Below are positions 34,501 to 37,500 of a stretch of 64,000 bases of DNA, one piece after another (within the stretch, counting starts at the first letter, position 1; every line of letters begins with the position of its first letter). The position numbers are program-made. The DNA lies in contig NC_135258.1 in assembly GCF_964204865.1 (NCBI RefSeq), positions 11,532,001 through 11,596,000 of the forward strand, written 5' to 3'. The stretch is from Styela clava (Eukaryota).

Positions 34501-37500
34501 AATTAGTTCATTGAACAAGGCTCCAATAAAGGCTTATAATCAAACAAGAAGGCGGACTCAGCATCTCAACTCTAAACCTTATACGTTTACTCAATAATAT
34601 TCAAGCTTCTTCATCGTTCCGCACCATATAGCATGGAATAATGTATAACTCGTTAAGCCTTTATTAAAGAATAGCAAAAAGTCCATAATGATTCAAATGA
34701 TATGTGACCGTTGTTTTTAAAATTGCGCTAGCAAATTTTGAAGGAACGAACTTAATCATTAAAATCATTTTCAGAAAAGTTCTCCAAGTCGAATCGTCAA
34801 CGTTTCCTCCGTCGGTCACAAATACGCAACAATTGACTGGGAAGATCCAAACGGAAAAAATAATTTTAGCCCGGAAGCATATGGTCGAAGCAAACTAATG
34901 AATATCTTGTTTTCAAGAGAACTCAGCAAACGACTTGATGGTGAGAAGTAATTTTCTATAATTTGTGCATGTCAAAAGTATAATTTTGTACGTCTTTATC
35001 TATATATTATGTAATTTTGAGTCATGATAATAGTATATATAATATTGAATTCAAATAACACTTCTTCAGTCGAGGCCCTTCGTATAAAAATTACCATTCT
35101 TGCGACAGACCTCATGTTCACCAAGACTCGCATCAGCCTGCGAACATCCAAATATTCTATTCTACTGACGACGACTTTATTTCTGATAGGTACTGGCGTA
35201 ACTTCGAATAGTTTACATCCTGGTGCTGTGAAAACTGAAATTGCACGTGATCTCAGTTGGAGCAAAGTGTCAGGATGTCTGGGATGCCTTACTGTATGTG
35301 CATTTAAAACATTTTCTGGGCTTATGATTAGCCCAGATAAAGGAGCACAGACTTCTATTTACTGCGCGATTGCTCCAGAACTAGAGGGGGTTACAGGAAA
35401 ATATTTCAGGTTAGTTATACTGTTATAAGAAAAATAAAGTACGATTATAAATGTTTTTCTGGTATACCCAAATCAAGTCATATAATTACTGCATCAGATT
35501 AGATATTGATTTGGATTTATATCCGCCATTATAAAGCAAATGAAACCAGAAGTAGATATTCAGTTTGATATTGAATTTAAAAGTCATTGAGATGTGTTGC
35601 GTCGTGTAGCTGTCGGAGTCTGATTTTTCAAAAGCTGACTGATATTGAAGTCGAAGCGTCGTGTCTCCTATCCTAAAATACTTATATATTGCATGTATAT
35701 ATTTGTATTTAAAGATTTAGTGATTGTGAAGTTGTGAAATATTTCAGGTTAGGTATACTGCTGTTTTAAGAAAACTGAAGTACGATTGTAAATGTTATTC
35801 TAGTATACCCAGTTCAAGTTATATATATATGATTACCTCATCAAATTATATGTTGATTTGAATTGACATTCACCAAAAATAGCTAATGAAGTCTTAAATA
35901 AATATTTTATACAAGATTTCAAAATATAATAATGAGACTATAGCGCAAGAATATACCATGATTTTTAATTATACATCCTACATTATACATTAAATTCAAT
36001 TTGAAACACGACCGAACAGGAACAATTAACTTACGAGACTTCCGCTGGAATACTTATATATTGTATGTATAATATATTTTTATTCAAACTTTAGTGGTTG
36101 TAAAGTTGTGAGAGAATCAAGCGACGCTAGAGATGATGAAAGTGCAAGTAAATTATGGAAAATTAGTGAAGAACTCACTGGATTGCACGAGACAGAGAAT
36201 TCAGGAAAAACAGAACGGGAAGATACAAAATAAAATTGAAAGGAGTGAATAAAACACAATTGCCGACTTTCAAATTATTACTAATTGATTATATTTTCTC
36301 TTACTTTGTTTGAAAAAATAACGATAATCGAACTAAGTTGTGAAGTTGATATCAAAGTTATTATATTAATTCCTACATAAATTTTTTTAACCGAAAAAGC
36401 ACAGAAACACAGACTGTTTTGTTTTTTAAAGCAGGAGATCTATGAAACAATTTAGTTCAAAACCTTATAGGATATTGTCGACATCAGGACATATGCGCCG
36501 TAATGAATTTCACTCCTACTCTTGAACTAATGCGGCTGTTGCTTCTATTTTCATCCCTCTCTTCGTTGGTATTTATAGTTCATTCATTCATAATTAATTT
36601 AATTTACCTAAACCTAGTAAAAGTTCACTAATAATTCTCCATAATATAAAAAATCTTTTTGTGGAAAAAAATACTCGTGGCCTCCTAAAGAGTCATAACA
36701 TTAAAATAGTAAATGCTTTTAAAAGCTTTTCTAAATTGTGGTCAAAAATTCAGCATCGCCACAGAAACCACGTTTTCAACAGTTTTTTGTTGTTCGCATG
36801 CATTTTCTTTTTATGGCCGATAGTTGGGATGGCCCGCAAGAATCAGTGATATGCTGACTATATATATACAAAAAAAAGAGGGCCGACATATATAGTTTCG
36901 CGAAGTTTATGAAAAATACCCATACTTAAAAACTATTTAGAGCCGGAAATATTTTTCACACATACTGCAATTATCCCCAAATTTCGAAAATTTCCCGTTC
37001 CGTCAAATTGTGTTTTAATCATCGTGAGTCATTCGTTCAAGACAAAACGAACCAATTGCAATTTAAAAAAAAACTCGAATGCTAGATTATTTCGCAAGTT
37101 GGTGCTTTACATTTATATATATCTCTATTTACAAATTAACGTAGACAAATCTCAAAGTTGTTACTGTTGCAAGTATTTAGTTACAACTGTATAATGCGTA
37201 TAATTTTTCTTTTTACATTTTGAGAAAGCTATCTCTGTTGTATCACCCATGTTGATGAGCAAAATATATTCACTACGAATTATAGAACAAGCGATTTATT
37301 CGATTGATACTTGAGAAAATATTAGAATTCATAGTTGAGATTATGTCTGAAATTACTAGAAAATTCTATCCGCAATATAAATTCTAATGTGGCACCATGA
37401 CTTAGCGTATAGCTTCATTAGTCAGCATAATTTTGAAATTGATTTGTGTTTTTATAACAGTCCAAAATTTTACATGTCTGAGCATGGCAAGATGATATAT

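What the first reader, a model, noticed from the sequence alone, without database searches (positions are those of the whole stretch)
35399..36110. Exon birth caught in the act: duplication of a whole intron creates an in-frame 27-nt chimeric microexon
Seen: intron 5 of RDH copy 1 is present twice (35410-35720 and 35748-36094), with alignable 5' and 3' ends. Between them lie 16 nt resembling the exon 6 start fused to the last 11 nt of exon 5, with AG and GT sites intact. The unit is 27 nt, phase 2-2 and stop-free, so inclusion gives GKYF-SDCEVVKYF-SGCKVV and skipping gives the normal protein. It carries the family-typical SDC (as in copy 4), while the terminal exon has SGC like copies 2 and 3, hinting at unequal recombination between paralogues. 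The two intron copies have diverged visibly yet the frame and splice sites persist. This is a clean candidate for intron/microexon gain by intragenic duplication.
Basis: partly seen in the sequence, partly recalled or inferred. Interest (0 to 1): 0.7.

Follow-up and report, generated by a model that had tools for sequence, protein, structure and literature searches.

The report
Duplicated intron flanking a latent 27-nt exon
In a sea-squirt retinol-dehydrogenase-like gene, an old internal tandem duplication copied a whole intron and left a splice-ready 27-base mini-exon between the two copies, but nothing yet shows that the mini-exon is used or selected.

Summary
The window is Styela clava. It carries four tandem RDH12-like SDR genes. 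In copy 1, a 338/374-nt head-to-tail duplication (35399-35736 / 35737-36110) contains all of intron 5 plus 11 nt of exon 5 and 16 nt of exon 6. This leaves a 27-nt, phase 2-2, stop-free segment (35721-35747) with AG and GT intact.

The two units match each other strongly at both ends. They match no paralogue intron. The middle third does not align.

- The event is old: p = 0.18 in the alignable intron, about the age of the copy 2/copy 3 split and roughly ten times the species' heterozygosity.
- The microexon carries the neutral number of changes (2 of 27, both non-synonymous). Its intactness is expected by chance about half the time.
- The only deposited protein for this gene skips it.
- 115 of 115 scorable homologues keep this hairpin within one residue above, or three below, the modal spacing. 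None has +9.
- A paralogue-recombination origin is not supported.

By sequence both splice sites look usable, so minor or alternative inclusion remains open. No RNA data could be reached. Propagation of a pre-existing intron by internal duplication is already a known mechanism.

The parts
33375..36233 (+). RDH12-like SDR gene, copy 1 (ATG to stop; 6 exons in the deposited model)
   Evidence: Exon-wise tblastn. Each exon is 100% or near-100% identical to P0001, 'retinol dehydrogenase 12-like [Styela clava]', with 3 differences in 315 aligned residues. Pfam adh_short E = 1.3e-32 for P0001.
35190..35409 (+). Exon 5 of copy 1, ending ...GKYF + AG (phase 2)
   Evidence: Acceptor at 35189; donor CAG|GTTAGT at 35410.
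35399..35736 (+). Duplication unit 1 (338 nt): last 11 nt of exon 5, intron copy 1, and a 16-nt copy of the exon 6 head
35410..35720 (+). Intron 5a (311 nt), GT...AG
35721..35747 (+). 27-nt chimeric candidate microexon, phase 2-2. It would encode (S)DCEVVKYF(S).
   Evidence: 14 of 16 and 11 of 11 positions are identical to the parent pieces. Donor CAG|GTTAGG matches the consensus at 7 of 9 positions. Acceptor has 11 of 20 pyrimidines.
35737..36110 (+). Duplication unit 2 (374 nt): 11-nt copy of the exon 5 tail, intron copy 2, and the first 16 nt of exon 6
35748..36094 (+). Intron 5b (347 nt), GT...AG
35561..35676 (+). Centre of unit 1 with no counterpart in unit 2 (partner stretch 35907-36048)
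   Evidence: Only an 18-nt inverted match (35563-35580 / 35990-36007), reached by 3 of 500 shuffles.
36095..36233 (+). Exon 6 coding part, (S)GCKVVRESS...EDTK, stop at 36231-36233
43359..43806 (+). Intron 5 of copy 2: single, not duplicated, unrelated in sequence to 5a and 5b
51919..52408 (+). Intron 5 of copy 3: single, not duplicated. It is homologous to copy 2 intron 5 (p = 0.15) but not to 5a or 5b.
59950..60340 (+). Intron 5 of copy 4: single; exon 6 starts (S)DCRRMF

Best explanation
A single intragenic tandem duplication of about 340-375 bp occurred in copy 1 of a four-gene RDH12-like cluster of Styela clava. One breakpoint lies 11 nt upstream of the exon 5 donor. The other lies 16 nt downstream of the exon 6 acceptor. 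Both fall on codon boundaries.

The duplication copied the complete intron 5 together with its donor, acceptor and adjacent signals. It left a 27-nt piece between the two copies, made of the exon 6 head plus the exon 5 tail, each in its native reading frame.

Splicing from the first donor (35410) to the second acceptor (36094) restores the original mRNA, so the duplication could fix neutrally (inferred). It has since aged. The copies differ by about 18% where they align and their centre has turned over.

The 27-nt piece is splice-competent by sequence but shows no sign of constraint. I infer that it is mainly skipped, lying within a 685-nt composite intron as in the deposited model. At most it would be a minor in-frame isoform that repeats the 9-residue hairpin unit KYFSxCxVV in tandem.

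Shown: the duplication, its boundaries, its specificity to copy 1, its relative age, and the neutral pattern of change. Inferred: the splicing outcome.
For: Duplication:
- The units align at both ends, E = 1e-30 and 8e-13.
- 0 of 300 shuffles reach the observed local score.
- The exonic flanks are duplicated with the intron.

Specific to copy 1:
- The pattern of exon 5 tail plus donor occurs twice only in copy 1 and once in each of copies 2-4.
- The acceptor pattern likewise occurs twice only in copy 1.
- There is no similarity to the paralogue introns.

Age:
- Intronic p = 0.181 (158 matches, 35 mismatches, 5 gap events), against 0.151 for copy 2/copy 3 intron 5.
- dS is 0.17 for c2-c3 and 1.0-1.1 for c1-c2/c3.

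No constraint on the microexon:
- 2 of 27 differences, both derived in the microexon relative to copies 2 and 3, and both non-synonymous (G>D, K>E).
- The neutral expectation is 2.45.
- Fisher test against the intron gives p = 0.13.

Skipping:
- P0001, the only protein of this gene found in the collection, reads GKYFSGCKVV.
- A search for 24-79-aa fragments found nothing.

Length constraint:
- GxYF-to-LW spacing is 24 in 110 of 115 scorable homologues (of 120), with a range of 21-25. None has +9.
- The insertion point F272|S273 lies inside a confidently modelled beta-hairpin (block pLDDT 97-98; model mean 92.4).

The outer sites are slightly stronger than the microexon's own: donor 8 of 9 against 7 of 9; acceptor pyrimidines 14 of 20 against 11 of 20.
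Against: By sequence the microexon's splice sites are as good as those of constitutive introns in the same gene.
- Its donor matches the consensus at 7 of 9 positions. Introns 1, 3 and 4 score 6, 5 and 5 of 9.
- Its acceptor has 11 of 20 pyrimidines. Introns 1-4 range from 10 to 13 of 20.

The two short introns (311 and 347 nt) might each be recognised on their own, which would favour inclusion (inference from general splicing knowledge).

The evidence behind the deposited model cannot be seen. A homology-guided model would skip a 27-nt exon whether or not it is used. Short exons are also easily missed by annotation pipelines.

The cluster of P0001 holds 2 member sequences.

The sample of 27 nt is too small to exclude weak constraint.

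The microexon carries the family-typical D: xDC forms are the commonest triplets after GxYF (ADC 11, SDC 7, DDC 5) against SGC 2.
Confidence: 0.6

Rival explanations
1. The 27-nt piece is a genuine, regulated alternative microexon. It adds a second KYFSxCxVV hairpin to the C-terminal part of the enzyme and is maintained by selection.
For: The frame, both splice dinucleotides and the absence of stops are intact. The splice sites fall within the range of constitutive ones. The 3' intronic block next to the microexon acceptor is the best-conserved part, with 4 mismatches in 43 sites. The microexon carries the family-typical D. An inserted hairpin has its two ends close together, so it could be tolerated (inference).
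Against: The changes match the neutral expectation and both are non-synonymous, one of them a charge reversal. The deposited model skips the piece. No homologue among 115 has an insert here. Intactness is expected by chance with a probability of roughly 0.46 (0.67 x 0.68).
Confidence: 0.12
2. The microexon is included in most or all transcripts because each short intron is removed on its own, and the deposited model is wrong. The insert is simply tolerated, with no selection for it.
For: Both new sites are near-copies of working sites. Introns of 311 and 347 nt are similar in size to the gene's others, which are 80-464 nt. Copy 1 is one of four paralogues, so some slack is conceivable.
Against: P0001 skips it. 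Spacing across this hairpin is nearly invariant in the family. Copy 1 has been under purifying selection, with omega 0.14-0.16 against copies 2 and 3, although most of that history predates the duplication.
Confidence: 0.2
3. The extra intron plus SDC piece came from another paralogue by unequal crossing-over or gene conversion.
For: The microexon has D like copy 4, while exon 6 has G like copies 2 and 3.
Against: Neither intron copy resembles intron 5 of copies 2, 3 or 4: scores are 20-26 against shuffle means of 21.6-25.4. The two copies are each other's only significant match in the window. The codons differ (AGT GAT against AGC GAC in copy 4). The microexon shares the T of GGT/GAT with copy 1's own exon 6, not the C of the other copies.
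Confidence: 0.03
4. The second intron arose by intron transposition (reverse splicing of the excised intron), or the duplication is an assembly artefact.
For: Homologous introns within one gene are the pattern that the review PMC3443670 attributes to transposition (passages seen).
Against: Exonic flanks (11 + 16 nt) are duplicated along with the intron, which reverse splicing does not do. Copies that differ by 16-23% in their alignable blocks, plus indels and an unalignable centre, cannot come from a mis-assembled identical repeat.
Confidence: 0.02

Closest known systems
Propagation of a pre-existing intron by internal tandem gene duplication. Examples are Arabidopsis TOUCH3 (Knowles & McLysaght 2006) and the cases of Gao & Lynch 2009, both as described in the introduction of PMC4974935. 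[quoted passage not shown]
   Same: A tandem duplication copies a whole intron with exonic sequence on both sides. The result is two homologous introns and a new short exon between them.
   Different: The exonic flanks here are very short (11 + 16 nt), so the new exon is a 27-nt chimera. Its use in mRNA is not shown. The original papers were not held; I know them only through the citing texts (one search failed for PMC2791625).
Rogers' AGGT model of intron creation by tandem genomic duplication: vertebrate ATP2A1 (Hellsten et al. 2011, PMC3265369; abstract and Discussion read).
   Same: A single-step intragenic tandem duplication yields an extra spliceable intron. The allele can spread nearly neutrally because normal mRNA can still be made.
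   Different: In that model the duplicated segment is purely exonic, the intron is new sequence-wise, and the peptide is unchanged. Here the segment is an existing intron, and removing both introns adds 9 residues.
Potato RdRp intron gain by a duplication crossing one intron-exon boundary (PMC4974935; abstract and introduction read).
   Same: [quoted passage not shown]
   Different: That duplication crosses one boundary and recruits a cryptic exonic donor. This one crosses both boundaries and inherits both sites ready-made.
Tandem exon duplication giving alternative exons. Recalled from general knowledge; PMC8373072 was seen only in the listing.
   Same: An internal duplication produces an extra, homologous coding unit that can be alternatively spliced.
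   Different: In that case whole exons are duplicated, with breakpoints in introns. Here the breakpoints are in exons and the new exon is a head-to-tail chimera of two different exons.
RDH11-14-like classical SDRs. The host gene's closest solved relative is 3rd5_A at E = 1.2e-38, followed by protochlorophyllide reductases.
   Same: The Pfam adh_short domain is present. The residues invariant across the 30-sequence alignment (T26, G27, G31, G33, N106, A107, S156, Y180, K184) are present in the deposited model P0001.
   Different: Nothing unusual for the skip form. The inclusion form would have a GxYF-LW spacing of 33, where all 115 scorable homologues have 21-25.

Membership tests
Intron propagation by internal tandem duplication | Two adjacent, head-to-tail homologous copies of the intron in one gene | tested here: met
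   E = 1e-30 and 8e-13; 0 of 300 shuffles reach the score. The centre is unalignable.
Intron propagation by internal tandem duplication | Exonic sequence from both sides is duplicated with the intron (separates it from reverse-splicing transposition) | tested here: met
   11 of 11 nt of the exon 5 tail and 14 of 16 nt of the exon 6 head are repeated at the unit junction.
Intron propagation by internal tandem duplication | The extra intron/exon is absent from paralogues and homologues (a derived state) | tested here: met
   Copies 2-4 have one intron 5 each. 0 of 115 scorable homologues have an insert at the site. Orthologues in other Styela species could not be examined.
Intron propagation by internal tandem duplication | Both introns are actually spliced (transcript evidence) | not testable with these tools
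   No RNA data could be reached. The only deposited protein (P0001) uses the outer sites.
De novo intron creation by exonic AGGT duplication (Rogers model) | The duplicated segment is exonic and the new intron is made of former exon sequence | tested here: not met
   The duplicated unit is 311-347 nt of pre-existing intron plus 27 nt of exon.
Tandem exon duplication | A whole exon is duplicated with breakpoints in the flanking introns | tested here: not met
   The breakpoints lie inside exons 5 and 6, and the new piece is a chimera of the two.
Alternatively spliced microexon | Very short exon (27 nt here) with functional 3' and 5' splice sites, multiple of 3 | tested here: met
   27 nt with AG and GT, phase 2-2 and no stop. 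Site quality is within the range of the gene's other introns. The size threshold is recalled, not taken from a call.
Alternatively spliced microexon | Observed inclusion in transcripts, and conservation | not testable with these tools
   Three protein searches found no inclusion form. The substitution pattern is neutral.
Short-chain dehydrogenase/reductase, RDH11-14-like (host gene) | adh_short domain with the Gly-rich NAD(P) motif, NNAG, and the catalytic Ser/Tyr/Lys | tested here: met
   Pfam PF00106 E = 1.3e-32. Invariant alignment columns T26, G27, G31, G33, N106, A107, S156, Y180, K184 are present. The motif names are recalled. Enzyme activity was not tested.

The most novel reading that the evidence does not exclude
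The 27-nt piece is a real, regulated alternative microexon born from whole-intron duplication. It is included in some stages or tissues, adds a second beta-hairpin next to the last strand of the Rossmann fold, and carries the family-typical Asp that the main isoform has lost. That would be a datable single-step birth of an exon plus intron whose parent sequences are still readable.
Probability: 0.12. Interest if true: 0.55.

Novelty: new member of a known kind. Interest (0 to 1): 0.3.

Why it matters
Cases in which the source sequence of a gained intron or exon is still legible are few, according to the introduction of PMC4974935. Here both parents, both breakpoints and a relative date can be read directly.

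If transcripts show that the piece is used, the locus would be a compact natural example of how one internal duplication yields a new intron, a new in-frame microexon and a 9-residue protein repeat at once. Public RNA-seq for this species exists (methods passage of PMC7540406), so a check should be possible.

If the piece is not used, the locus illustrates something else. Splice-competent pseudo-exons can sit intact in introns for a long time simply by chance. Intact frame and splice sites in 27 nt are therefore not evidence of function.

Tried and rejected
- **Tandem Repeats Finder** did not report the 338/374-nt pair. The copies are too diverged and gapped for it. Alignment and blastn were used instead.
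- **Cluster members.** This stays unchecked.
- **Protein searches.** All three were made exon by exon: exon 5 with 'longer', exon 6 with 'longer' and exon 6 with 'near'. They found only the skip-form model P0001 for this gene and no fragment spanning the junction.
- **Inversion of the intron centre** as the cause of non-alignment. Only an 18-nt inverted match was found, reached by 3 of 500 shuffles. This does not explain it.
- **Intron-hosted RNA.** Rfam at E <= 1 over 33000-37000 gave one sub-threshold hit, which lies in exon 4 and not in the introns.
- **Repeat or transposon origin of the unalignable centres.** No significant match elsewhere in the window. The rest of the genome could not be searched.
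- **Gao & Lynch 2009** (PMC2791625) is not held.
- One search had off-by-one donor coordinates for intron 1 and for the intron 5 of copies 2 and 3; these were corrected. Searches used copy 2 and copy 3 intron coordinates that start 1 nt early, which is immaterial.
- **Joined isoform.** The joined inclusion isoform was not assembled, searched or folded, so the effect of the 9-residue insert is inferred only from the fold of the deposited skip form.
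Full report
**Where we are**

The window has no N and is AT-rich, with GC of 0.31-0.38. Exon-wise tblastn finds four tandem paralogues of one six-exon gene on the + strand:
- copy 1 at 33375-36233
- copy 2 at 38666-43897 and a little beyond
- copy 3 at 49285-52499
- copy 4 at 57860 to about 60480

The exon 5 peptide of copy 1 is 100% identical to P0001, 'retinol dehydrogenase 12-like [Styela clava]', 318 aa. 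Copy 2 corresponds to P0003. The window therefore comes from the ascidian Styela clava, not from a human.

Exon by exon, the window differs from P0001 at 3 of 315 aligned residues and from P0003 at 2 of 304. It therefore represents another individual or haplotype than the deposited models. P0001 is a classical SDR: Pfam adh_short E = 1.3e-32, and the closest solved relative is 3rd5_A at E = 1.2e-38.

**The observation**

- Exon 5 ends at 35409 (…GGA AAA TAT TTC AG).
- A GT…AG intron runs 35410-35720.
- A 27-nt piece lies at 35721-35747.
- A second GT…AG intron runs 35748-36094.
- Exon 6 begins at 36095.

The 27 nt consist of 16 nt that match the head of exon 6 at 14 of 16 positions, followed by 11 nt identical to the tail of exon 5. 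The structure is a head-to-tail duplication of a unit [11 nt exon 5 + intron + 16 nt exon 6]. Unit 1 is 35399-35736 (338 nt) and unit 2 is 35737-36110 (374 nt).

Both breakpoints fall on codon boundaries, so each half of the 27-mer is read in its native frame. The piece reads (S)DCEVVKYF and exon 6 reads SGCKVV…. At protein level, inclusion would make an exact tandem repeat of nine residues, KYFSDCEVV-KYFSGCKVV.

All searches were made exon by exon.

**Is the similarity more than chance?**

Yes.
- The two introns give a local score of 122. Shuffles give mean 22.3, sd 2.7 and maximum 33, so 0 of 300 reach it.
- By blastn the 5' blocks are 76.6% identical over 171 columns (E = 1e-30). The 3' blocks are 84.1% identical over 63 columns (E = 8e-13).

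Two qualifications apply.
- The central third (35561-35676 against 35907-36048) does not align. Its forward score is reached by 207 of 500 shuffles. Only an 18-nt inverted match is there, reached by 3 of 500 shuffles.
- Tandem Repeats Finder does not report the pair.

Copies this diverged cannot be an assembly artefact.

**Origin**

The duplicated exonic flanks argue for genomic tandem duplication and against transposition of a spliced-out intron.

- Neither intron copy resembles intron 5 of copies 2, 3 or 4. All six comparisons score 20-26, inside the shuffle range.
- The two units are each other's only significant match in the window.
- The junction patterns occur twice only in copy 1.

The Asp codon of the microexon is GAT. 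It is one transition away from the GGT of copy 1's own exon 6, and it differs from the GAC of copy 4. Asp is the family-typical residue at this position: after GxYF the commonest triplets among the 120 hits are ADC 11, AKS 11, SDC 7 and DDC 5, against SGC 2. Whether Asp here is a reversal or an ancestral state retained is equally parsimonious, at two steps either way. I leave this open.

**Age**

In the alignable intronic parts there are 158 matches, 35 mismatches and 5 gap events, so p = 0.181. The 5' block has p = 0.207 and the 3' block p = 0.093.

For comparison:
- Intron 5 of copies 2 and 3 differs by p = 0.151.
- dS between copies 2 and 3 is 0.17.
- dS between copy 1 and copies 2 or 3 is 1.0-1.1.

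The intragenic duplication is therefore about as old as the copy 2/copy 3 gene duplication and much younger than the split of copy 1 from them. It is roughly ten times the 1.72% heterozygosity reported for the species (PMC7540406, passage seen). 'Caught in the act' is not apt.

**Is the microexon constrained?**

There is no sign of it. It differs from its parents at 2 of 27 positions. Using copies 2 and 3 as outgroups, both changes are derived in the microexon. Both are non-synonymous: Gly>Asp, and Lys>Glu, which reverses a charge.

The parental halves lie in real exons, so only the microexon's own branch is free to change. The neutral expectation is then half the intronic distance, or 2.45 changes, with P(<=2) = 0.55. 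A direct Fisher test against the intron gives p = 0.13.

With the observed substitution and indel rates, the chance of no indel in 31 nt is about 0.67 and of four unchanged splice bases about 0.68. An intact frame and intact sites are what one expects roughly half the time without any selection.

**Would it be spliced in?**

By sequence it could be.

| Site | Donor match to CAG\|GTAAGT (motif recalled) | Acceptor pyrimidines in -3..-22 |
|---|---|---|
| Microexon | 7 of 9 (CAG\|GTTAGG) | 11 of 20 |
| Outer sites (exon 5 donor, exon 6 acceptor) | 8 of 9 | 14 of 20 |
| Copy 1 introns 1-4 | 6, 8, 5, 5 of 9 | 10-13 of 20 |

The inner sites are slightly weaker than the outer ones but within the range of constitutive sites in the same gene.

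Three points weigh against inclusion being the main outcome.
- P0001, the only protein of this gene in the collection, reads …GKYFSGCKVV…, which is the skip form.
- Searches with exon 6 alone found only P0001 and P0003 among longer proteins and nothing among proteins of 24-79 aa.

**Structural context**

P0001 was folded with a 30-sequence alignment. The model has mean pLDDT 92.4 and pTM 0.90. The junction F272|S273 lies inside the first strand of a beta-hairpin: Y271-S273, turn G274-C275, then K276-V277.

Among 115 of 120 homologues that carry both the GxYF and LW motifs, the spacing is 24 in 110, 25 in 2, and 21, 22 and 23 in one each. None has +9. The inclusion form would have a spacing of 33.

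An inserted hairpin has adjacent ends, so it might protrude harmlessly. That is inference.

Copy 1 as a whole has evolved under purifying selection, with omega 0.14-0.16 against copies 2 and 3.

**What it most likely is**

It is a real and old intragenic tandem duplication. Whether it is fixed in the species could not be checked. It propagated a pre-existing intron and left a splice-competent but unconstrained 27-nt pseudo- or micro-exon.

Use of the outer sites restores the normal mRNA, which explains how the duplication could spread neutrally. I put about 0.6 on 'mainly skipped, at most a minor isoform'. I put about 0.2 on 'mostly included and merely tolerated' and about 0.12 on 'a selected alternative microexon'.

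**Comparison with what is known**

The introduction of PMC4974935 describes tandem duplications that copy an entire pre-existing intron with exonic sequence on both sides. Its examples are Arabidopsis TOUCH3 and the cases of Gao & Lynch 2009. It classes them as multiplication of a pre-existing intron rather than creation of a new one.

The AGGT model, shown experimentally for ATP2A1 (PMC3265369; abstract and Discussion read), differs in two ways. There the duplicated segment is exonic, and the peptide is unchanged.

This locus is therefore a new member of a known kind.

Searches for 'Styela clava' with 'retinol dehydrogenase' (1 paper, the genome paper, which mentions only rdh10) and with 'alternative splicing' (22 papers, 10 listed, none on this gene by title) found no description of it. 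Supplementary files were not opened and might hold gene-level data.

**What stayed unchecked**

- Transcript evidence
- Other S. clava haplotypes and assemblies, and other Styela species
- The evidence behind the deposited model
- The fold of the inclusion isoform (the joined step was left out)
- Whether the unalignable intron centres are repeats found elsewhere in the genome

Noticed in passing
window 49794-49928 (copy 3, exon 2): Copy 3 reads LINNPG where copies 1, 2 and 4 read (I/V)NNAG. N106, A107 and G108 are invariant or nearly invariant in the 30-sequence alignment. Copy 3 may be functionally altered or decaying. omega between copies 2 and 3 is 0.30, against about 0.15 for copy 1 versus either.
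   Followed up: partly
window 38855-41405 (copy 2, intron 1): Intron 1 of copy 2 is about 2.5 kb. It is 464 nt in copy 1 and about 310 nt in copy 3, judging from the exon coordinates. This suggests an insertion. The content was not examined.
   Followed up: no
window 44704-45153 (-), between copies 2 and 3: A 149-aa open frame (…HHTLLMHTAVRWLSRGKTLEWVF…) with no Pfam match at E <= 0.001. From memory it resembles the C-terminal part of hAT-type transposase-derived proteins. This was not tested.
   Followed up: partly
window 24982-25539 (-) and 23734-24558 (-): Two long uninterrupted open frames sit next to each other. One is an Arf-family small GTPase (Pfam Arf E = 9e-76). The other is an RWD-domain protein (E = 8e-15, with a sub-threshold Prp3_C match). 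Both appear intronless over these stretches.
   Followed up: partly
window 35566-35575 and 35640-35649 (centre of intron 5a): An exact 10-nt direct repeat, TGATATTGAA, occurs 74 nt apart. Each copy is followed by a GCGTCGTGT motif (read). This is a small local duplication inside the part of intron 5a that has no counterpart in 5b.
   Followed up: no
window 35563-35580 vs 35990-36007: An 18-nt inverted match (89% complementary) links the two unalignable intron centres. It is reached by 3 of 500 shuffles and remains unexplained.
   Followed up: yes
window 34160-34239 (copy 1, intron 2): This intron is only 80 nt long and has a purine-rich acceptor region, …AATAAATTTAAAG, with 10 of 20 pyrimidines. 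It is nevertheless constitutive in the deposited model. This shows how weak polypyrimidine tracts can be in this gene.
   Followed up: partly
window 33375-36233 and 38666-43918: Amino-acid differences from the deposited S. clava proteins: copy 1 has I6S, N53S and V157I, and copy 2 has S9N and A19V, written as window residue then deposited residue. The window therefore comes from a different individual, haplotype or assembly.
   Followed up: yes
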